A stretch of DNA of 64,000 bases from Shigella phage KNP5: sequence record KX452698. One strand, 5' to 3'. Each line of letters starts with the position of its first letter. Positions within the stretch are counted from its first letter, which is position 1. The translations under genes were made by a program, and so were the position numbers. The notes under the pieces are model-generated. The model had not been told where the DNA came from. It made no database searches and was given only the letters and a program-made list of their open reading frames with translations. Shown here piece after piece: positions 6,009 through 62,047 of the stretch.

Positions 6009-7210
6009 TATTTTGTAATAATGTCAAACTGTTCTTTAAAGCAGAAGCTTGAATCTTGATGCTGATACAAAAATTCATAAGCTTTTTCGCGTTCACGGTC
6101 ATAAAGAGCTCGGTCAGATGACAGTTCTTTAATACGTTCAAATGTTGATTCCATGTCATTTTCATCAAACCAAACGATACCGCTATCATGTGAAATTAAC
6201 GGAGTATTATCAACACGGAATTTTAAATTTTCGCCAGTAGATTTCCAAAATACCGGAATTGTTCCGCACGCACCAAGCTCGAGATGAGTATATTCTAAAG
6301 AACGTTGTAGATATTTTTTGTCCAACTTACTCAACTGATAACCAAATCCGGATTTACTCATGCGTTCAAGCATTTCGCTATTTACATAACGGTCGAGAAT
6401 TTGCGTTGGCAAATTAGGAGCAATTTTAATTTGGTCTACTTGATGAAGACGATAATACTCGTATGGAATTCCTTTTTCTTTAATAGGAATGAACGCTGGA
6501 GAACGTTCCAGACCTTCCATAATAGTACTTAGTCCAGCAGGTTTAAGATGTTTTTCGTGAAAATCAAACATCTGATAAAAGCCTTTCCATGTAGTCGTAC
6601 GACCGATCCAACGGTTGACATTCATATTAATTTCAGAAACATCTTTCCAGTAGGTTGATCGAACCTTCGCAATATCCATAGGAGGCTGAAAGTTGTATAC
6701 GGTCGGTGCTTCTTCAATATCATCAAACAGAGAAACTATTTCTGGATACCATTCTTTCATCAAAACTTTATTAAAATCACCATTATCAGAATGGCTAAAA
6801 ATAACATCAGCACGACGAACAGTTTCTTCTAATCCCAAATTTCGACGTAAAGAAAGAGAAGAATGGTCATGTTGATAAACTACAACACGAACCGAAGGTT
6901 TAATGTTATCAATAATTTTTTTATAGTTATTAATAGTGTCTTCTTCTACTGAAGTAGCAGGAACTGAATTGATAATTAGAATATCACAATCATTTACCAG
7001 CTTAAGTGTTTTATCGTATTCTTTTGCCAATAAAACCGGAATTGAAAATGATTTATAATCATGCGCACAATTACGGGTAAATGATTTATCTTTAGCATAA
7101 ACCAAAGTTACTTCATGACCATTTTTAATAAACCAATCACGCTGCTCGAGAGAAAATTTAGTTACGCCGCAACCTTCAAGACCTCGAGCCATAAAAATAC
7201 ATACTTTCAT
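6008..7210 (-). CDS. a-gt: DNA alpha-glucosyltransferase (400 aa)
   Basis: ORF MKVCIFMARGLEGCGVTKFSLEQRDWFIKNGHEV...QFDIITK, same length and colinear with T4 a-gt as recalled. Confidence 0.95.
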   Translation of the reverse strand: MKVCIFMARGLEGCGVTKFSLEQRDWFIKNGHEVTLVYAKDKSFTRNCAHDYKSFSIPVLLAKEYDKTLKLVNDCDILIINSVPATSVEEDTINNYKKIIDNIKPSVRVVVYQHDHSSLSLRRNLGLEETVRRADVIFSHSDNGDFNKVLMKEWYPEIVSLFDDIEEAPTVYNFQPPMDIAKVRSTYWKDVSEINMNVNRWIGRTTTWKGFYQMFDFHEKHLKPAGLSTIMEGLERSPAFIPIKEKGIPYEYYRLHQVDQIKIAPNLPTQILDRYVNSEMLERMSKSGFGYQLSKLDKKYLQRSLEYTHLELGACGTIPVFWKSTGENLKFRVDNTPLISHDSGIVWFDENDMESTFERIKELSSDRALYDREREKAYEFLYQHQDSSFCFKEQFDIITK

Positions 7211-11552: not shown

Positions 11553-12023
11553 TTAATCATGTTTCCACACCCCATCAGTATTTGACCAAAGTCGCTGATT
11601 ATCTGATCCTCGCCACAGCTTTTTGGTCGGAAGATTTTTCTCATACTTCCCATCAATAATAACATCAACATATTTAAGCATTTCTAGTTGTTTAATATCT
11701 TCAAACTTATATCCTGTCCACAACCAAATGCTTTTATTTGGATAAAGATTTTTTACTGTTTGAACAATGCAATGAACAGCATCTCGGTTATCAGGATAGA
11801 GAGGGTCTCCTCCAGTTATAGTTAATCCTTCTATATAATCATTATTCAAACATTCAATTAATTGTTCTAGTGTTTCACCAGTGAATGGAACGCCATTTCT
11901 AGCATTCCATGTTGATTTATTATAACACCCTTCGCATTTATGCAAACACCCCGTAACGAAAAGAACGACCCTGCATCCAGGGCCATTCACAAAATCGCAA
12001 GGATAAAATCTATCATAATTCAT
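11553..12023 (-). CDS. nrdG: Anaerobic ribonucleotide reductase activating protein NrdG (radical SAM, 156 aa)
   Basis: Radical-SAM cluster motif CLHKCEGCYN; immediately 3' of nrdD with ATGA overlap. Confidence 0.9.
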   Translation of the reverse strand: MNYDRFYPCDFVNGPGCRVVLFVTGCLHKCEGCYNKSTWNARNGVPFTGETLEQLIECLNNDYIEGLTITGGDPLYPDNRDAVHCIVQTVKNLYPNKSIWLWTGYKFEDIKQLEMLKYVDVIIDGKYEKNLPTKKLWRGSDNQRLWSNTDGVWKHD

Positions 12024-16624: not shown

Positions 16625-17550
16625 TTCAATACCTCAATGGCATTACGTAAACCATTTGCTTTTGCATTAAGAGCTTTTAACAATTTGGTGTGTTCGGCAA
16701 TCTGGGCTTCAACTTCAATCAAGCGAGCATTGAGATATTCACGTTCTTCGCTCAAGTTATCAGCCTTTTCTACTTTAGGTTCTTTTACGTTTGGCTTATA
16801 TGTATTAGGGTTCTTCAGTTTAATTAGAATACGTGAACTGTATAACATTGAACCATTATCTTCGGTTTCGTCATACATTTCTACTACGTCCATGATTTTT
16901 AACATCATGCGGAGTTTATAAGACAACGAACGAATAGTTTTGTTGTGCTTATTAATTTCTCTAGAGTTCATGGTGCCGAGATTACGTGAGTAATAATAAG
17001 GAACCTGGATATTAATTAACACTGATGAACCACCTGGCTTGTGTGTTACTTCATCAGCAATAACCCAATCCTTAACATGAACTGTATTTGTACGGTCATC
17101 GCCTGCGGTAAATAGTTTGCGAGCATGCTTAAAAAGCATATTCACTTGGGCATTGAATTGACAAGCAAATTTATCAGCAAATTTAGTTTCAGGAATGGTA
17201 GATAACCAATCAGCCAAATGGGTCTTTTTAACATCGTTAACAATAGTAAATTCAACCAAATCGGTTATAGATGTCGTAGATTTAATGAAGCTCGGCTTCA
17301 TAAAGTTTTTAATGTTATCGCGAGCTACAGTAGAAGATAACATACGAGAACGTTTAAACCATTCAAGCAAATTGCCTAACGAATGAGAATAAGCGTTTTG
17401 AGTATCTTTACAGATATGATTTTCCTGGCCAACATATTGAAGGAAATCACGAAGAATATTATTGATTACTGCTCTGTGTCCGATCTGATAATTACGGTGT
17501 TTAGTAATAAGACTGTCAAAATAATCAATATAATGTTTACGAGTTTTCAT
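16621..17550 (-). CDS. Hypothetical protein with C-terminal coiled coil (309 aa), family member 1
   Basis: Globular N-terminal region then about 50-aa heptad-rich tail starting PKVEKADNLSEE... Confidence 0.55.
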   Translation of the reverse strand: MKTRKHYIDYFDSLITKHRNYQIGHRAVINNILRDFLQYVGQENHICKDTQNAYSHSLGNLLEWFKRSRMLSSTVARDNIKNFMKPSFIKSTTSITDLVEFTIVNDVKKTHLADWLSTIPETKFADKFACQFNAQVNMLFKHARKLFTAGDDRTNTVHVKDWVIADEVTHKPGGSSVLINIQVPYYYSRNLGTMNSREINKHNKTIRSLSYKLRMMLKIMDVVEMYDETEDNGSMLYSSRILIKLKNPNTYKPNVKEPKVEKADNLSEEREYLNARLIEVEAQIAEHTKLLKALNAKANGLRNAIEVLK

Positions 17551-28531: not shown

Positions 28532-28720
28532 TTAGTCCTTAGTTAAATTTTCTAAATATGTTTCTAAATCATTTTCAGCTTTATCGATAGATTTTACTAA
28601 TTCGTAGTATGTTTCAGCATCTCCATAATCAGAAGATATTTCAAAAGACAAATCTTGTTCTAAACTAATAATTTCACCAACTAAAAATAATATTTCGTTC
28701 TTTTGTTCGCGAGTAATCAT
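28532..28720 (-). CDS. Small acidic protein (62 aa)
   Basis: MITREQKNEILFLVGEIISLEQD...; paralogous to next ORF. Confidence 0.5.
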   Translation of the reverse strand: MITREQKNEILFLVGEIISLEQDLSFEISSDYGDAETYYELVKSIDKAENDLETYLENLTKD

Positions 28721-28902
28721 AAGGAATTTATATAATTAATAAGTTCTTGTTCTTTATCGTCGAAATCTTTACACAGTTCTTCGTATTCATCGGTATTAAA
28801 AGGACCGCATTCATCACAAACTTTTTCCAATTCGCTATTTTTATCCATAACTTCGTGAATAAGAGAAAATAGTCTGTCTTTTTGTTCTTTGCTTAGGCTC
28901 AT
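28717..28902 (-). CDS. Small acidic protein (61 aa)
   Basis: MSLSKEQKDRLFSLIHEVMDK... Confidence 0.5.
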   Translation of the reverse strand: MSLSKEQKDRLFSLIHEVMDKNSELEKVCDECGPFNTDEYEELCKDFDDKEQELINYINSL

Positions 28903-29072
28903 ATATTAATTTCCAAAAGTTTTAAAATAATTCGCTTTTGCTTAAATATTTCCATAGTTAAATGATCAGTATCTTTTTGACCGATTCCAATGGCAAAACC
29001 TTTATTAACAGCGAGTTCAATTAAATTATCAAGTTCACGTAACACTTCATATTGTAGCTCAGAACTATTCAT
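28899..29072 (-). CDS. Hypothetical small protein (57 aa; below ORF-track cutoff)
   Basis: ATGA overlaps at both ends fill the gap between annotated ORFs. Confidence 0.35.
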   Translation of the reverse strand: MNSSELQYEVLRELDNLIELAVNKGFAIGIGQKDTDHLTMEIFKQKRIILKLLEINI

Positions 29073-29296
29073 TTCGGTTTACCTTCTTTAACGAAATCAG
29101 GATAAGGATAAAATCCCGAATAAAATCCTTCACCTTTATGATTGATGCATCCTTTATTAGAACAATAGCACCAATAATCGAAATCACAAGCCATTTCATC
29201 ATTACATAAAGCAAAAACAACTGGCCATTCACACTTTTCGCAGTGTGCATTTTTAAGAATACTAGTTTGGCTCATAACCATGTAACCTTTAAGCAA
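29069..29296 (-). CDS. Cys-rich small protein (75 aa), possible zinc-binding
   Basis: HCEKCEW...C...C...CYC...C spacing. Confidence 0.45.
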   Translation of the reverse strand: MLKGYMVMSQTSILKNAHCEKCEWPVVFALCNDEMACDFDYWCYCSNKGCINHKGEGFYSGFYPYPDFVKEGKPK

Positions 29297-29484
29297 TATT
29301 CTTCTACGTGCTGTTTACGACCTTTCTTATCAATAAAGGTATATTCAACGAATGTTCCAATATAGTCTTTATTTACATCATGTGGACTATTAATTGGGCA
29401 TTTAGTACGGCAAATGCGTTCCCATTGACGAATAATTTCCACTCTGTTTTTAGGATCAAACGGATGCGGGTAATGTACTTTCAT
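29272..29484 (-). CDS. Hypothetical protein (70 aa)
   Basis: Minus-strand ORF. Confidence 0.45.
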   Translation of the reverse strand: MKVHYPHPFDPKNRVEIIRQWERICRTKCPINSPHDVNKDYIGTFVEYTFIDKKGRKQHVEEYCLKVTWL

Positions 29485-29935
29485 AATCCACCACTATTAA
29501 ATCAATATCAGGAGTAAACATGTCGATTAATTTAGAAACCTTGTCCCAATCACCACCAGCAATACCGCAACCTATGCGTGGAATGTAAATTACTGGTTTA
29601 AACAAAAGGGTTTCTGCCTGTAGATTTAATTCTATCATGCAGTTTACTAAAGCACCATAATCAAGATTAGGACCCGGTTCGTATTGCGTATACAAATTAT
29701 AGCATATACCAAATCCCGTAGGACTATGTTTAAAAACAATAGACATATCGCCTAATTTATCACGAGAACCGTACTCGGTAGTGGTTTTATCTATTTCTAA
29801 AATTTTGGGATAGGCTCTTGCTAATTGACCTGCTACGCCAGAGCCCATTGTGTGGAAGCAATTGCACCCGTGCGCAATAATATTACCTTGAAGAAATAGG
29901 GCGACAATATCGCCCTTGATATATTTTACAATCAT
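29456..29935 (-). CDS. Macro-domain (ADP-ribose binding/processing) protein (159 aa)
   Basis: NIIAHGCNCFHTMGSGVAGQLA and IPRIGCGIAGGDW match the two macro-domain glycine-rich loops. Confidence 0.6.
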   Translation of the reverse strand: MIVKYIKGDIVALFLQGNIIAHGCNCFHTMGSGVAGQLARAYPKILEIDKTTTEYGSRDKLGDMSIVFKHSPTGFGICYNLYTQYEPGPNLDYGALVNCMIELNLQAETLLFKPVIYIPRIGCGIAGGDWDKVSKLIDMFTPDIDLIVVDYESTLPASV

Positions 29936-30279
29936 CTAGTACTCAATCCTCGATTATAAGAATCTACCAAACGGTCAACCATTGAATGACAAGCGGCTTT
30001 ATCTTTCTCCTCCGCAACTGAACATTCTAAGGTATTCCATTTTTTAGCATATCGTTTTAACAATGTATCATTTTTGTATCTGCTTGATTTATCTCTTTCT
30101 CCGTCTTTATATGCATATATTAATTTCTGTGCAAATTCAGCTTGGCATGCTTTATTTTTCCCGCAATAATCCGCGGCAGTACGATTTACATACTCTCTAA
30201 TTTCAGTATATGATGTATCTGCTGATGCAGAAGCAGAAAATGAAATTAATCCTATACATAAAACCAAAATTTTAGTCAT
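29932..30279 (-). CDS. Secreted/periplasmic protein with signal peptide (115 aa)
   Basis: MTKILVLCIGLISFSASASA signal sequence; four Cys. Confidence 0.5.
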   Translation of the reverse strand: MTKILVLCIGLISFSASASADTSYTEIREYVNRTAADYCGKNKACQAEFAQKLIYAYKDGERDKSSRYKNDTLLKRYAKKWNTLECSVAEEKDKAACHSMVDRLVDSYNRGLSTR

Positions 30280-31286: not shown

Positions 31287-31345
31287 GTTATTCTCCTCTT
31301 AACTGATAGAGAAATTATACCACAGTCAAGAGGAAAAGTAAACAG

Positions 31346-42998: not shown

Positions 42999-43695
<697 letters not shown>

Positions 43696-56569: not shown

Positions 56570-58374
56570 TGAAACAAAATATTAATATCGGTAATGTTGT
56601 AGATGATGGTACCGGTGACTACCTGCGTAAAGGTGGTATAAAAATAAATGAAAACTTTGATGAGCTTTATTATGAACTCGGTGATGGTGATGTTCCATAT
56701 TCAGCCGGTGCCTGGAAAACTTATAACGCTTCATCTGGGCAAACATTAACAGCAGAATGGGGAAAATCATACGCTATTAATACTTCGTCTGGGAGAGTAA
56801 CACTACAACTTCCTAAAGGAACTGTTAATGATTACAACAAGGTAATTAGAGCTAGAGACGTATTCGCTACATGGAACATCAATCCAGTTACGCTAGTAGC
56901 TGCTTCTGGTGATACGATTAAAGGATCGTCATCATCTGTTGAAATTAATATTCAATTTAGTGATTTGGAGCTAGTTTATTGTGCTCCAGGACGTTGGGAA
57001 TATGTCAAAAATAAGCAAATTGACAAAATTACCAGTTCAGACATTAGTAATGTAGCTCGTAAAGAATTTTTAGTTGAAGTTCAAGGACAAACTGACTTTT
57101 TAGATATTTTCCATGGAACTAGTTATAATGTCAATAACATCAGAGTAAAACATCGTGGTAACGAATTGTATTACGGCGATGTATTTAGCGAAAACAGTGA
57201 CTTTGGTTCTCCAGGGGAAAATGAAGGAGAATTAATTCCTCTCGATGGATTTAATATTAGGCTAAGACAGCCTTGTAATATTGGTGATACTGTTCAAATT
57301 GAAACATTTATGGATGGTGTATCACAATGGAGAAGTTCATATACAAGACGCCAAATAAAAGTACTAGATTCAAAACTAACATCAAAGACTTCTTTAGAAG
57401 GAAGCATTTATGTTACTGATTTATCGGCGATGAAATCAATTCCATTCTCCGCATTTGGATTAATTCCTGGCGAACCCATTAATCCTAATTCTCTTGAGGT
57501 TCGTTTTAATGGAATTTTACAGCAGCAGGCTGGAACAGCTGGATATCCTCTGTTTTTGTGTGAAGGTGCTAATTCAGATACGCAAGAAGGATGTATATCT
57601 CTTGGTGGCGAATGGAAAGAATCAAACACCGATTATTCTATAGAATATGAAGACGGAAAACCTATCAGTCTTTTATTTGATAGAAAATTTGAATCCGGTG
57701 ACATTATCGTTATAACATGGTTCAATAATGATTTAGGAACTCTTTTAGAAAAAGATGACATCATTGAATTGACTGATGACCGTTATGTTAGTAAAGGATC
57801 ATCTACTGAAGTTACTGGTGATGTGGCCTTAACAGATTTTGATAAAATCGGTTGGCCAAATGTTGAAAAAGTTGATTCTTATACTAGAACGTATAATTCA
57901 ATATCATCTATTTTCGACAGCATTTATCCTGTTGGTTCAATTTATGAAAATGCTATAAACCCAAATAATCCGGTGACTTATATGGGATTTGGTTCATGGA
58001 AATTATTTGGTAAAGGACAAGTTTTAGTAGGATGGAATGATGATGTTACGGATCCAAACTTTGCTTTAAACAATAATGATTTAGATTCTAGCGGAAATCC
58101 TTCACATACGGCAGGTGGAACGGTTGGAACAACATCAGTAACGCTTGAAAACGCAAATCTTCCTGCAACTAAAACCGACGAAAGAGTTTTAATTGAAGAC
58201 GAAAATGGATCGGTTATTATTGGAGGTTGCCAATATGACCCAGATGAAACTGGTCCTATATATACAAAATATCGTGAAGATTACGCAACAACAAACTCTT
58301 CACATACTCCTCCTGCTAATATTAGTAATATTCAACCGTCTATTACTGTATACCGTTGGATAAGGATTGCATAA
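56569..58374 (+). CDS. 10: Baseplate wedge protein gp10 (601 aa)
   Basis: Length (T4 about 602) and order. Confidence 0.9.
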
Positions 58375-59033
58375 TGAGTTTACTTAATAATAAAGCGGGA
58401 GTTATTTCCCGCTTAGCAGATTTTCTTGGTTTTAGAACTAAGAAAAATGATATTTCGGTTATGAATAATCAGCCAGTAGGTGCTGTAACAATTTCACAAA
58501 TAGCAAAAGGGTTTTATGACCCAAATGTAGAATCTGCTATTAATGATGTTAGAAATATGGCAGAGCAACAGGTTGGAGCTGTATTAGTTAATATAAGTGG
58601 CGTATCTCCTACTGGCGTGCAGCAAACAGACTATTGGTCATTTGAAGGAACTGTCAATGATACTTCAGCCAAACCAGGTGACCCGGTTATTGTTAACATG
58701 TTTGGCATTCCTGTTAAAGCTACTAATGGAATGACTTCAATCGAATTTACCAGTGCCGTTAGAACAGCTCTGCAGGAAATGGTTGCAAAATTTATTGCAA
58801 TTGATTCATTTGAAGACCATCCTACCATAGGAAATAAAATACAAGTTAAGTATTTAGATAATCAAGAACATATCTTAGAACAATACTCTGATAAAGGAAT
58901 TACTTTCAAACAAGAAATAATTTCTCCTTCTAAACCTGGGTATGGAACTTGGCAATTATTAGGTGCGCAAACTGTTACGCTAGATAGTCACACACAACCT
59001 ACAGTATTTTATTATTTTGAGAGAATAGCATGA
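58374..59033 (+). CDS. 11: Baseplate wedge protein gp11, short-tail-fibre attachment (219 aa)
   Basis: ATG 58374-58376 overlapping gene 10 stop (TAATG); [17 protein letters not shown]... Confidence 0.9.
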
Positions 59034-60580
59034 GTAACAATACATATCAGCACGTATCAAATGAATCAAAATATGTTAAATTCGATCCTACTGGATCGAA
59101 TTTTCCTGACACTGTCACGACAGTGCAGTCTGCATTATCAAAAATAAGTAATATCGGCGTAAATGGTATTCCTGATGCAACTATGGAAGTTAAAGGAATA
59201 GCAATGATTGCGTCAGAGCAAGAGGTTTTAGATGGAACTAATAATTCTAAAATCGTTACACCCGCTACATTAGCAACAAGATTATTGTATCCAAATGCTA
59301 CTGAAACTAAATATGGTTTAACGCGCTATTCAACAAATGAAGAAACATTAGAAGGCTCAGATAATAATTCATCAATAACGCCGCAAAAACTGAAATACCA
59401 TACCGACGATGTGTTCCAAAATAGATATTCGTCTGAGTCATCAAATGGAGTTATTAAAATATCATCTACACCTGCAGCTTTAGCTGGAGTTGATGATACT
59501 ACGGCAATGACTCCATTAAAAACGCAAAAACTTGCAATAAAATTAATTTCACAAATAGCTCCTTCCGAAGATACTGCATCAGAATCTGTGAGAGGCGTAG
59601 TTCAATTATCTACTGTTGCGCAAACTCGTCAAGGAACTCTCCGCGAAGGATATGCAATTTCTCCGTATACCTTTATGAATTCTGTTGCAACACAAGAATA
59701 TAAGGGTGTTATACGTTTAGGAACACAATCGGAAATTAACAGTAATTTAGGAGATGTTGCAGTAACAGGTGAAACATTAAATGGTCGAGGAGCTACTGGT
59801 TCTATGCGCGGTGTAGTAAAATTAACGACGCAAGCCGGTATTGCCCCCGAGGGTGATGGCTCTGGAGCATTAGCATGGAACGCAGATGTAATTAATACAC
59901 GCGGTGGACAAACTATTAATGGTTCTTTAAATTTAGACCATCTTACAGCAAATGGAATTTGGTCGCGCGGCGGTATGTGGAAAAATGGTGATCAACCTGT
60001 TGCCACTGAAAGATATGCGTCTGAAAGGGTTCCAGTTGGAACTATTATGATGTTTGCGGGTGATTCTGCACCTCCAGGTTGGATTATGTGCCATGGTGGA
60101 ACCGTGTCAGGAGATCAATATCCTGATTATAGAAACACAGTTGGAACAAGATTTGGTGGTGATTGGAATAACCCTGGCATTCCTGATATGCGAGGTCTTT
60201 TCGTCAGAGGAGCTGGCACAGGAGGTCATATTTTAAATCAACGAGGACAAGATGGTTATGGAAAGGATAGACTTGGCGTAGGATGTGACGGAATGCATGT
60301 TGGCGGTGTTCAAGCACAACAAATGTCATACCATAAACATGCTGGTGGCTGGGGAGAATACCAAAGACATGAAGCTCCATTTGGCGCGTCCGTTTATCAA
60401 GGATATCTTGGAACTAGAAAATATGCCGACTGGGATAACGCTTCATACTTCACTAATGATGGATTTGAATTAGGTGGACCGAGAGATGCCCTTGGTACAC
60501 TTAATCGTGAAGGATTAATTGGTTATGAAACTAGACCATGGAATATATCATTAAACTATATTATTAAAATTCATTACTAA
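59030..60580 (+). CDS. 12: Short tail fibre protein gp12 (516 aa)
   Basis: Repetitive beta-structure middle, C-terminal receptor-binding region; position after gene 11. Confidence 0.9.
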
Positions 60581-60589
60581 GGATTACAA

Positions 60590-62047
60590 ATGATTGAATT
60601 AAAAGAGTTACCTTTTGTTGATAGCGTTCCTGGCGAAGGTCAGGAACGTATTTCATGGATTAAAAATGGTGAAGAAATATTAGGAGCTAGTACTAAGTAT
60701 GGAAACGATGGGTCAATGAATAGACCAACTGTTTCCGTGTTTAAAAACGTCGAGGTTCTCGACGAAAATGTAGGAATTCTTAAAACTGCCATTGAAACAT
60801 CTCAGGAAGATATTAAAACTATTCAAGGCATTTTAGATGTATCAGGAGATATAGAAGCGCTATCACAGATCAGCGTTAATAAAAATGATATATCAAGTTT
60901 AAAGACGCTCACAAGTGAACATACTGATATATTAAATGGTACAAATACTACGGTTGATAATATTCTTTCTGATATTGGTCCATTTAATTCGCAAGCAAAT
61001 TCAGTTTATAGAACGATTAGAAATGATTTGCTGTGGATTAAAAGGGAACTAGGACAATATGCTGGACAAGATATTAATGGTCTTCCTGTTGTAGGAAATA
61101 GCAGCACGGGGATGAAGCACCGTATCATTAATAATACAGATGCTATAACTTCCCAAGGAATACGTCTAAGTGATTTGGAAGAAAAATTTATTGAATCTGA
61201 TGTAGGTTCGCTTACAATCGAAGTAGGAAATCTTAGACAGGAATTAGGACAAAGACCGCCTTCATTTAGTGAAAGTATATATTCACGTGTGCATAATTTA
61301 GATCAATCACAAATTAATCTTAATTCCGAAATTAAATCTATCAAAACTTCTATTGGATATCCAGGAAATACTTCAATAATCACAGATGTTAACACTAATA
61401 CACGAGAAATTTCAGCTTTAACTGATGAGCTAAATAAAAGCGGAGGTGTTAAACAGCGATTAACTGTCATTGAAACATCAATTGGCTCAGATGATATTCC
61501 TTCTAGTATTAAAGGTAAAATTAAAGATAATACAACATCTATTGAGTTTTTAAATGGAATTGTTGGTGAAAACACTTCATCTGGACTACGAGCAAACGTT
61601 TCGTGGTTAAACCAAATTGTTGGAACTGATTCTAGCGGTGGACAACCTTCTCCTCCTGGGTCTCTTTTAAATAGAGTTTCAACTGTTGAAACTTCCGTTA
61701 ATAGACTGAATAATGATGTTCAAAACTTGCAAGTTGAAATTGGTAATAACAATTCCGGAATTAAAGGACAGGTTGTAACATTAAATAAATTAGTAAATGG
61801 AACAAATCCAAATGGTTCAACTGTCGAAGAACGTGGATTAACTAATTCAATAAAAGCTAATGAAACTAACATTTCTTCTATTAATCAAGAAATGCGTAGT
61901 ATTAAAAGTAATGTATCTTCATTACAGGCGGATGTTCAGACTTTACAGGAAGCAGGTTATATTCCTGAAGCTCCAAAAGATGGTCAAGCTTACGTTCGTA
62001 AAGACGGCGAATGGGTATTACTTTCTACCTTTTTATCACCAGCATAA
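60590..62047 (+). CDS. wac: Fibritin, whisker/neck protein (485 aa)
   Basis: Long coiled-coil with C-terminal foldon [27 protein letters not shown]. Confidence 0.95.

What the first reader, a model, noticed from the sequence alone, without database searches (positions are those of the whole stretch)
29456..29935. Macro-domain protein in the tk-regB accessory segment
The 159-aa ORF contains NIIAHGCNCFHTMGSGVAGQLA and IPRIGCGIAGGDW, which match the two glycine-rich ADP-ribose-binding loops of macro domains (YmdB/MacroD-like). T-even phages heavily use ADP-ribosylation (Alt, ModA, ModB), and hosts use ADP-ribosylating toxins such as DarT and ADP-ribose-derived immune signals. A phage macro domain could erase host-imposed ADP-ribosylation or degrade such signals.
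Basis: partly seen in the sequence, partly recalled or inferred. Interest (0 to 1): 0.65.

Follow-up and report, generated by a model that had tools for sequence, protein, structure and literature searches.

The report
T4-type phage Tk.4 (AdfM) macrodomain
This is the already known T4-family gene tk.4, a small ADP-ribose-removing (macrodomain) enzyme whose T4 counterpart was recently shown to protect the phage from the bacterial DarTG2 defence that ADP-ribosylates phage DNA; the copy here is a divergent, untested allele of it.

Summary

The window is a Tequatrovirus (T4-like phage). The ORF is gene tk.4, between tk.3 and vs. T4's copy has long been annotated as an 'A1pp phosphatase'.

A 2025 preprint found tk.4 to be the only T4 gene needed on a DarTG2 host and renamed it adfM.

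Three corrections and additions:
- **Class.** It is not YmdB/MacroD-like. It belongs to the TARG1/ALC1-like class.
- **Active site.** An invariant Gln84 replaces the catalytic lysine of DarG and TARG1. SCO6735, a proven thymidine-ADP-ribose DNA hydrolase, has the same Gln. So do phage Adpp-like proteins, whose family includes a proven ADPR-1''-phosphate phosphatase.
- **Allele.** This copy is only 58% identical to the tested T4/T2 protein, although the flanking DNA is 95-100% identical. It is an old allele swapped in as a gene-sized cassette, and it is the commoner of the two in sequenced phages.

Its activity has not been tested. The Thoeris idea has no support.

Verdict: already known, low interest.

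The parts
29456..29935 (-). tk.4 (adfM) coding sequence, 159 aa, a single macrodomain
   Evidence: ORF listing. Pfam Macro above cut-off. AF2 pLDDT 94. Synteny with tk.4 of Shigella phage vB_SsoM_113 and of T4.
29819..29884 (-). Residues 18-39, NIIAHGCNCFHTMGSGVAGQLA: the first ADP-ribose-binding loop. It holds the invariant H22, G23, N25, C26, G33 and A35. N25 corresponds to SCO6735 Asn27.
   Evidence: Invariant columns of the 103-sequence alignment. hhalign to SCO6735. Role of Asn27 from PMC9411070.
29684..29698 (-). Residues 80-84, NLYTQ. The invariant Gln84 (codon CAA at 29686-29684) sits where DarG has Lys80 and TARG1 has Lys84, and equals SCO6735 Gln85.
   Evidence: hhalign alignments. 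Alignment A3. Codon read.
29546..29584 (-). Residues 118-130, IPRIGCGIAGGDW: the second glycine-rich (phosphate-binding) loop. It is near-identical to PRIGCGLAGGTW of SCO6735 and PRIGCGLAGGKW of BT1257. A126 sits where TARG1 has Asp125.
29932..29935 (-). ATGA overlap: the stop codon of vs overlaps the start codon of tk.4, which suggests translational coupling (inferred).
   Evidence: ORF coordinates and sequence.
29456..29484 (-). 29-nt overlap between the 3' end of tk.4 and the 5' end of tk.3 (DUF7202). T4 has only a 4-nt overlap here.
29391..29883 (.). Gene-sized island of low DNA identity to T4 (42-75%) inside flanks that are 95-100% identical: the allele-replacement cassette.
   Evidence: Sliding identity. 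dS about 2.0 inside against 0.09-0.15 in vs, vs.1 and regB.
31314..31342 (-). Best sigma-70-like promoter match (TTTACT-17-TATAAT with TG), just upstream of regB. It is the candidate early promoter for the co-oriented regB-vs.1-vs-tk.4 run (inferred).
   Evidence: This is a consensus match only; the region holds no more such sites than shuffled sequence does.

Best explanation
The ORF is the Tequatrovirus gene tk.4, recently renamed adfM. It is a stand-alone macrodomain of the TARG1/ALC1-like class.

Proposed mechanism:
1. The gene is probably expressed early, together with regB, vs.1 and vs.
2. The protein most likely binds the ADP-ribose that host DarT2-type toxins attach to thymidine in single-stranded phage DNA.
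3. It hydrolyses the ribose-thymine bond, which restores replicable DNA.
4. Catalysis probably follows the SCO6735 mode. The invariant Gln84, held in place by Asn25, positions the distal ribose, and an activated water does the chemistry. This differs from the lysine-based chemistry of DarG and TARG1.

Shown here: macrodomain identity, class, active-site residues, synteny and allele structure.
Shown by others: tk.4 is required for T4 to grow on a DarTG2 host; Gln-type macrodomains can cleave thymidine-linked ADP-ribose.
Inferred: that this 58%-identical allele does the same, and that it acts by direct hydrolysis.
For: **Identity and fold.**

**Orthology by position.** The gene lies between tk.3 and vs, as in T4.

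**Genetics in T4.** tk.4 was the only hit on a DarTG2 host, and the clean knockout was sensitised. T4 lacking adfA and adfN remained DarTG2-resistant, which had predicted an additional factor.

**Active site.**
- Q84 and N25 are invariant in 103 homologues.
- Q84 aligns with DarG K80, TARG1 K84 and SCO6735 Q85.
- SCO6735 cleaves DarT-made thymidine-ADPr on DNA. Its Q85A mutant is dead and N27S nearly dead (PMC9411070). The activity was confirmed on synthetic substrates (PMC12879935).
- Loop 2, PRIGCGIAGGDW, almost matches that of SCO6735 and BT1257.

**Arms-race signature.** tk.4 has the lowest identity to T4 of any segment in about 54 kb of synteny. The other low-identity islands lie in a-gt, nrdG, nrdC.3 and the baseplate/fibre genes 10-12 and wac.

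**Parallel case.** An unrelated phage macrodomain, PhiKZ gp104, removes DarT2 marks in vitro.
Against: - No biochemistry exists for any Tk.4 protein. The T4 evidence is a knockout phenotype plus fold similarity, with no complementation reported.
- The tested T4/T2 allele is only 58% identical to this one. It also differs in loop 2: GAGIGKGNW against GCGIAGGDW.
- The catalytic lysine of DarG/TARG1 and the TARG1 aspartate are both absent.
- The extended lysine-bearing mobile loop that helps SCO6735 bind DNA is about five residues shorter here and has no lysine.
- Vibrio phage Quinn gp175, which lies between the NARP1 genes Adps and Namat, shares the same active-site motifs. Its family's characterised member, Vibrio phage Gary Adpp, is an ADPR-1''-phosphate phosphatase. 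Sequence therefore cannot tell the two activities apart.
Confidence: 0.65

Rival explanations
1. It is mainly an ADP-ribose-1''-phosphate phosphatase, like yeast Poa1p and phage Adpp. It would act on a soluble NAD-derived product such as the ADPR-1''-P made by RES-domain (aRES) defence proteins or by RNA repair, not on DNA.
For: - T4 Tk.4 has long been annotated 'phosphatase; A1pp phosphatase motif', and PHROG 335 is named 'phosphatase'.
- Poa1p is among the best sequence and structure matches. Its H23 and S30, which the depositors mutated, correspond to H22 and T29 here.
- Purified Adpp of Vibrio phage Gary converts ADPR-1''-P to ADPR and is needed to beat aRES.
- The Quinn homologue lies between Adps and Namat. 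It is 36-41% identical to this protein and has the same HxCNC, YxQ and GCGxAGGDW motifs.
Against: - Adpp is only useful as part of a NARP1 operon, which rebuilds NAD+ from ADPR. tblastn finds no Adps or Namat homologue in the 64-kb window, and the gene's neighbours are tk.3 and vs.
- The only phenotype recorded for a Tk.4 protein is against DarTG2, a DNA-modifying system.
- The two activities are not exclusive, since macrodomains are often promiscuous.
Confidence: 0.2
2. It neutralises DarT2 chiefly by binding: either by inhibiting the toxin directly or by shielding or sequestering ADP-ribosylated sites. Catalytic hydrolysis would not be the main route.
For: - Catalytically dead SCO6735 Q85A still inhibited DarT in vitro, more strongly than DarG K80A or TARG1 K84A.
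- Other phage anti-DarT factors (AdfA, AdfB) are described as counter-defences found through escape mutants, not as hydrolases.
Against: - The catalytic-type residues H22, N25 and Q84 and both Gly loops are invariant across very divergent homologues. That pattern is expected for an enzyme, not a toxin-specific binder.
- There is no DarG-like C-terminal toxin-binding domain. The protein is a single 159-aa domain.
Confidence: 0.08
3. It degrades ADP-ribose-derived immune signals (Thoeris-type cyclic ADPR isomers) or reverses protein ADP-ribosylation, including that made by T4's own Alt/ModA/ModB.
For: - Macrodomains are versatile. A comparative-genomics survey argued that phage macrodomains might mostly target soluble ADPr derivatives (PMC9503650).
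- SCO6735 and TARG1 also remove glutamate-linked protein ADP-ribose.
Against: - No experiment links Tk.4 to Thoeris.
- Alt and Mod modify arginine. That linkage is handled by ARH/DraG-type enzymes, not by this macrodomain class (and my own knowledge).
Confidence: 0.05

Closest known systems
T4 Tk.4 / AdfM (NP_049723; bioRxiv 10.1101/2025.11.20.689424)
   Same: - Same locus, between tk.3 and vs, with the same orientation and a similar length (155 against 159 aa).
- Same invariant H22, N25 and Q84 and both Gly loops.
- The first 48 residues are nearly identical.
   Different: - Only 58% identical overall.
- dS is about 2 against about 0.1 in the flanking genes.
- Loop 2 is GCGIAGGDW here and GAGIGKGNW in T4.
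- There is a 4-residue C-terminal extension.
- The DarTG2 phenotype is known only for the T4-type allele; T2's protein is 100% identical to T4's.
Streptomyces coelicolor SCO6735 (PDB 5E3B) and Bacteroides BT1257 (2AFC/2FG1)
   Same: - Stand-alone ALC1/TARG1-like macrodomains.
- Gln replaces the catalytic Lys, with the same supporting Asn and the PRIGCGxAGGxW loop.
- SCO6735 cleaves thymidine-linked ADP-ribose on DNA.
   Different: - 26-29% identity.
- The mobile loop after the Gln is about five residues shorter here and lacks the lysines (Lys89, Lys94) that aid DNA processing in SCO6735.
- Tk.4 has HGCNC where SCO6735 has HVCND.
DarG antitoxin macrodomain (PDB 5M31, 5M3E, 5M3I) and PhiKZ gp104, which is also called 'AdfM' (PMC13309987)
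   Different: - DarG and PhiKZ gp104 carry the FPTK catalytic lysine and a GNGGL loop; Tk.4 has LYTQ and IAGGD.
- The PADLOC DarG model gives 132.9 bits for PhiKZ gp104 but 27.5 for Tk.4.
- The NCBIfam DarG equivalog gives 27.7 bits against a cut-off of 250.
- BLASTP of Tk.4 against gp104 gives only E=0.001 over 23 residues.
- There is no C-terminal DarT-binding domain and no adjacent darT.
Phage Adpp (NARP1-AP ADPR-1''-phosphate phosphatase; bioRxiv 10.64898/2026.01.28.702374) and yeast Poa1p (6LFQ)
   Same: - Vibrio phage Quinn gp175 is homologous at 36-41% identity and shares the HxCNC, YxQ and GCGLAGGDW motifs.
   Different: - Adpp sits between Adps and Namat and works with them. This gene has no NARP1 neighbours.
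- By my alignment, Poa1p has Ser where Tk.4 has Q84 and Phe152 where Tk.4 has A126. The central part of the Poa1p sequence I used came from memory.
Human TARG1 / OARD1 (4J5R)
   Same: Top Foldseek hit (E=8e-10). Same class, and it also cleaves thymidine-ADPr DNA.
   Different: The catalytic dyad Lys84/Asp125 is replaced by Gln84/Ala126.

Membership tests
Macrodomain superfamily (Pfam PF01661) | Profile score above the curated cut-off | tested here: met
   32 bits against a cut-off of 22, E=1.3e-7, covering nearly the whole profile.
Macrodomain superfamily (Pfam PF01661) | Three-layer alpha/beta/alpha macro fold | tested here: met
Macrodomain superfamily (Pfam PF01661) | Two glycine-rich ADP-ribose/phosphate-binding loops, conserved in homologues | tested here: met
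   G33, G122 and G124 are invariant; A126, G127 and G128 are at least 90% conserved in 103 sequences.
ALC1/TARG1-like macrodomain class | Nearest structures and sequences are TARG1, DarG, Poa1p and SCO6735/BT1257, not MacroD, PARG or macroH2A types | tested here: met
TARG1 family | Catalytic Lys84/Asp125 dyad | tested here: not met
   hhalign places Q84 and A126 at those positions. The TARG1 sequence I used was verified against the PDB.
DarG antitoxin (NCBIfam NF048014, PADLOC DarG) | Model score at family level | tested here: not met
   27.7 bits against a cut-off of 250. PADLOC gives 27.5 bits against 132.9 for the DarG-type PhiKZ gp104.
DarG antitoxin (NCBIfam NF048014, PADLOC DarG) | Catalytic lysine (Taq Lys80) in an FPTK motif | tested here: not met
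   Gln84 aligns to that lysine.
DarG antitoxin (NCBIfam NF048014, PADLOC DarG) | C-terminal DarT-binding domain and an adjacent darT toxin gene | tested here: not met
   The protein is a single 159-aa domain that matches only positions 2-142 of the 338-position model. Its neighbours are vs and tk.3.
SCO6735/BT1257 Gln-type subgroup | Gln at the catalytic-lysine position, supported by the conserved Asn | tested here: met
   Q84 = Q85 and N25 = N27 by hhalign (E=4.7e-16). Both are invariant in the family.
SCO6735/BT1257 Gln-type subgroup | Extended mobile loop with Lys89 and Lys94 that aids DNA processing | tested here: not met
   There are 8 residues between Q84 and the conserved Tyr, against 13-14 in SCO6735 and BT1257, and no lysine among them (loop role).
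SCO6735/BT1257 Gln-type subgroup | Hydrolysis of thymidine-linked ADP-ribose on ssDNA | not testable with these tools
   Needs an enzyme assay.
T4 Tk.4 / AdfM orthologue | Same genomic position and homology to T4 Tk.4 | tested here: met
   It lies between tk.3 and vs. BLASTP gives E=1e-70 and 58% identity over 155 residues with no gaps.
T4 Tk.4 / AdfM orthologue | Required for growth on a DarTG2-expressing host | not testable with these tools
   Shown only for the T4 allele. T2, which is also DarTG2-resistant, has the identical T4-type protein.
Adpp (NARP1-AP phosphatase) | Homology to NARP1-embedded macro proteins | tested here: met
   36-41% identity to Vibrio phage Quinn gp175, with shared motifs.
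Adpp (NARP1-AP phosphatase) | Encoded within or next to an Adps-Namat (NARP1) operon | tested here: not met
   tblastn with Quinn Adps and Namat finds nothing better than E=0.15 in the window.

The most novel reading that the evidence does not exclude
The two deeply diverged tk.4 alleles that circulate in Tequatroviruses may be functionally different counter-defence variants. The window-type has a canonical GCGIAGGDW loop and occurs in about 347 phage records. The T4/T2-type has GAGIGKGNW and occurs in about 235. They could be tuned to different DarT2 variants or ADP-ribose linkages. Alternatively, the window-type enzyme could be bifunctional, acting as both a thymidine-ADPr DNA glycohydrolase and an ADPR-1''-P phosphatase, which would link the DarTG2 and RES/NAD-depletion arms races in one small protein.
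Probability: 0.2. Interest if true: 0.5.

Novelty: already known. Interest (0 to 1): 0.22.

Why it matters
Taken alone, this is a routine annotation. tk.4 is a catalogued T4-family gene, identical proteins are already in GenBank, macrodomains occur in about 41% of myoviruses, and the anti-DarTG2 role of the T4 copy is published.

Three modest points may help people working on ADP-ribosylation-based phage defence:
- T4-type 'AdfM' is not a DarG-type macrodomain. It is a Gln-type (SCO6735-like) enzyme, so the lysine-based mechanism should not be assumed. The name AdfM now covers two different subfamilies.
- The same active-site signature is found in Adpp-like proteins, whose family includes a proven ADPR-1''-P phosphatase. 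Substrate specificity in this family therefore cannot be read from sequence.
- The allele tested so far is the rarer of two old alleles that are swapped as gene-sized cassettes. Phage-host range predictions for DarTG2 should not yet be extended to window-type phages.

Tried and rejected
- **YmdB/MacroD-like class.** Rejected on the structure and sequence ranking and on the motifs.
- **Membership of DarG.** Rejected. Model scores fall far below the cut-offs, and there is no catalytic Lys, no C-terminal domain and no darT gene.
- **Membership of TARG1.** Rejected, because the K/D dyad is absent.
- **NARP1-associated Adpp.** Homology is real, but no Adps or Namat gene is in the window.
- **Rapid local hypermutation as the cause of the divergence from T4.** Rejected. 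dS is about 2 with dN/dS about 0.2, and the boundaries are sharp, which indicates replacement by an old allele under purifying selection.
- **A regulatory RNA hairpin at the 5' end of tk.4** (29898-29916, plus a stem covering the AUG). It is the same in T4, but the folding z-score is only -1.8 to -2.0, so it is not significant.
- **The promoter scan.** It found no more sites than shuffled sequence does, so only the site upstream of regB is mentioned, as a candidate.
- **Literature search for 'AdfM'.** It was swamped by unrelated uses of the string, but it did return the PhiKZ paper.
- **Active-site geometry.** I could not read the model coordinates, so no active-site geometry was measured.

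Full report
**1. The observation**

The ORF at 29456-29935 on the minus strand exists. It encodes 159 aa from an ATG start. Both quoted peptides are present, at residues 18-39 and 118-130.

It is a macrodomain beyond reasonable doubt:
- Pfam Macro scores 32 bits against a cut-off of 22 and covers almost the whole profile.
- PHROG 335 matches at E=1e-71.
- Single-sequence hits to solved macrodomains reach E=4e-10. A profile of 103 homologues reaches E=6e-19.
- An AlphaFold2 model built from that alignment has mean pLDDT 94.2 and pTM 0.89.
- The glycine-rich loops are conserved in the homologues: G33, G122 and G124 are invariant.

**2. What and where it is**

The window is a Tequatrovirus (T4-like phage). 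A 2-kb stretch around the ORF is 99.6% identical to Escherichia phage KNP1 and 98% identical to many Escherichia and Shigella phages. The whole window is collinear with T4 from gene 44 to gene 15.

In annotated relatives and in T4 the gene is tk.4, flanked by tk.3 and vs in the run regB - vs.1 - vs - tk.4 - tk.3 ... tk. T4's RefSeq record already calls it 'phosphatase; contains A1pp phosphatase motif'.

The vs stop codon and the tk.4 start codon overlap as ATGA. The best promoter-like site lies just upstream of regB. Co-transcription as an early unit is plausible but not shown here.

**3. What is already published**

A November 2025 preprint (HIDEN-SEQ, 10.1101/2025.11.20.689424) challenged a saturated T4 transposon library with a DarTG2-expressing host.
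- tk.4 was the single significant hit.
- A clean deletion sensitised T4 to DarTG2.
- The authors renamed the gene adfM and proposed, from fold similarity to M. tuberculosis DarG, that it removes ADP-ribose from DNA.

This fills a gap left by earlier work, which showed that T4 and T2 lacking adfN, and T4 also lacking adfA, remain DarTG2-resistant.

Independently, a chimallivirus macrodomain (PhiKZ gp104, also named AdfM) was shown biochemically to remove DarT2-made ADP-ribose from DNA.

**4. Which kind of macrodomain**

Within that class, the key residue differs from what the DarG analogy suggests.
- hhalign places the family-invariant Gln84 on the catalytic Lys80 of T. aquaticus DarG and on Lys84 of TARG1.
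- It places Ala126 on TARG1 Asp125.
- The same Gln occurs in BT1257 and in SCO6735, as Gln85.

SCO6735 is informative. It lacks the Lys/Asp residues yet cleaves DarT-made thymidine-ADP-ribose on DNA. Its Q85A mutant is inactive and N27S nearly so, and a water-mediated mechanism has been proposed (PMC9411070; activity confirmed in PMC12879935).

Tk.4 keeps Gln84, Asn25 (the equivalent of Asn27) and a near-identical PRIGCGIAGGDW loop. Loss of the lysine is therefore no argument against DNA de-ADP-ribosylation. It points to SCO6735-type chemistry.

Tk.4 does lack the longer, lysine-bearing mobile loop that SCO6735 uses for DNA.

By contrast, PhiKZ gp104 is a true DarG-type protein. It has the FPTK motif, matches Mtb DarG at E=9e-25 and scores 132.9 bits on the PADLOC DarG model, against 27.5 bits for Tk.4. 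Tk.4 and gp104 barely match each other by BLASTP. The name AdfM now covers two distinct subfamilies.

**5. A real rival**

A January 2026 preprint describes Adpp, a Poa1p-like macrodomain inside phage NARP1 operons. Adpp dephosphorylates ADPR-1''-phosphate, the product of aRES NAD+ cleavage, so that NARP1 can rebuild NAD+.

One of the tblastn hits, Vibrio phage Quinn gp175, sits exactly between an Adps-like gene (annotated ribose-phosphate pyrophosphokinase) and a Namat-like gene (annotated nicotinate phosphoribosyltransferase). It is 36-41% identical to the window protein and has the same HxCNC, YxQ and GCGLAGGDW motifs.

Two activities are therefore demonstrated in proteins that carry this active-site signature, and sequence cannot separate them.

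Three things favour the DarT2 reading here:
- No NARP1 gene is in the window.
- The genomic position is that of T4 tk.4.
- The only phenotype known for a Tk.4 protein is against DarTG2.

A secondary phosphatase activity remains quite possible.

**6. The allele**

The window protein is only 58% identical to T4 Tk.4. The surrounding DNA is 95-100% identical to T4. Identity collapses to 42-75% almost exactly over the ORF.

| Comparison with T4 | dN | dS |
|---|---|---|
| tk.4 | 0.38 | about 2.0 |
| vs, vs.1, regB (flanking genes) | 0.003 or less | 0.09-0.15 |

These values indicate an anciently diverged allele under purifying selection, exchanged as a gene-sized cassette. They do not indicate local rapid evolution.

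Across about 54 kb of synteny, the only other islands this divergent are part of a-gt, nrdG, nrdC.3 and the baseplate/fibre genes 10, 11, 12 and wac.

Both alleles are common. The window-type core matches 347 phage records and the T4-type core matches 235. T2 carries a protein 100% identical to T4's. Every published DarTG2 observation on T-even phages therefore concerns the T4-type allele, and the window-type allele is untested.

The window-type is the more canonical of the two. Its loop 2 matches the family consensus, whereas T4's has Gly-Lys at positions that are at least 90% Ala-Gly in the family.

**7. Verdict**

The gene and the function of its T4 counterpart are already known.

My estimates:
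- About 0.65 that this allele counters DarT2-type DNA ADP-ribosylation by direct hydrolysis with Gln-type chemistry.
- About 0.2 that its main role is as an ADPR-1''-P phosphatase.
- Smaller shares for binding or inhibition and for other substrates.

Interest is low. The residual value lies in the mechanistic correction (Gln-type, not DarG-type), the overlap with Adpp, and the untested allele dimorphism.

Noticed in passing
window 28904-29270: A 367-bp insertion relative to T4, between tk.2 and tk.3. It carries two small ORFs: 28899-29072 (57 aa, no Pfam hit) and 29069-29296 (Pfam 'Phage zinc binding domain' PF23895, Cys-rich). Going by the gene layout and its RB32-based annotation (sequences not compared), T2 appears to carry the same two ORFs together with the T4-type tk.4. 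If so, the insertion and the tk.4 allele assort independently.
   Followed up: partly
window 16649-17415 (T4 nrdC.3), 11684-11973 (nrdG), 6395-6541 (a-gt): Besides tk.4, these are the only early-region islands below 72% DNA identity to T4 within otherwise 90-97% identical synteny. nrdC.3, a protein of unknown function, falls to 55% over about 770 bp. It may be another swapped allele worth a look.
   Followed up: no
window 57479-61435: Baseplate and fibre genes 10, 11, 12 and wac show the expected mosaic divergence from T4 (58-64% in places). These are host-range determinants.
   Followed up: no
window-wide, relative to T4: The window lacks DNA at the T4 positions of several mobile-endonuclease genes and one intron: mobB, mobC, the nrdD intron with I-TevII, mobD, segB and segC. 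The ipII/ipIII region is replaced. This was inferred from gaps in the blastn tiling set against the T4 annotation.
   Followed up: partly
window 28532-28720 and 28717-28902: tk.1 and tk.2 are tandem paralogues of one small family (Pfam DUF7438). tk.3 is DUF7202. vs.1 has an SLT lytic transglycosylase domain.
   Followed up: no
window 29885-29960 (minus strand): The first roughly 60 nt of tk.4 and its upstream junction are nearly identical between the two otherwise divergent alleles. They can fold into a stem that covers the AUG, plus an 8-bp GC-rich hairpin at codons 8-13. The folding z-score is only about -1.9, so this may just mark the recombination boundary.
   Followed up: partly
database records for this protein: Annotation is inconsistent: 'hypothetical protein', 'phosphatase', 'macro domain protein' and 'O-acetyl-ADP-ribose deacetylase'. 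One cluster (P0002, 130 aa, named after Shigella phages SHFML-26 and SHFML-11) covers only 82% of the protein. It probably starts at the internal Met30, which would cut off strand 1 and part of the first binding loop.
   Followed up: no
literature: The name AdfM was given independently to two non-orthologous macrodomains: T4 Tk.4 (Gln-type) and PhiKZ gp104 (DarG-type with the catalytic Lys).
   Followed up: yes
window about 43000-43460 (by synteny with T4 57B) and the nudE homologue downstream of e: By collinearity with T4, the window should also carry 57B/acb1 (anti-CBASS) and the NudE Nudix hydrolase, which is active on ADP-ribose. The exact coordinates were not checked.
   Followed up: no
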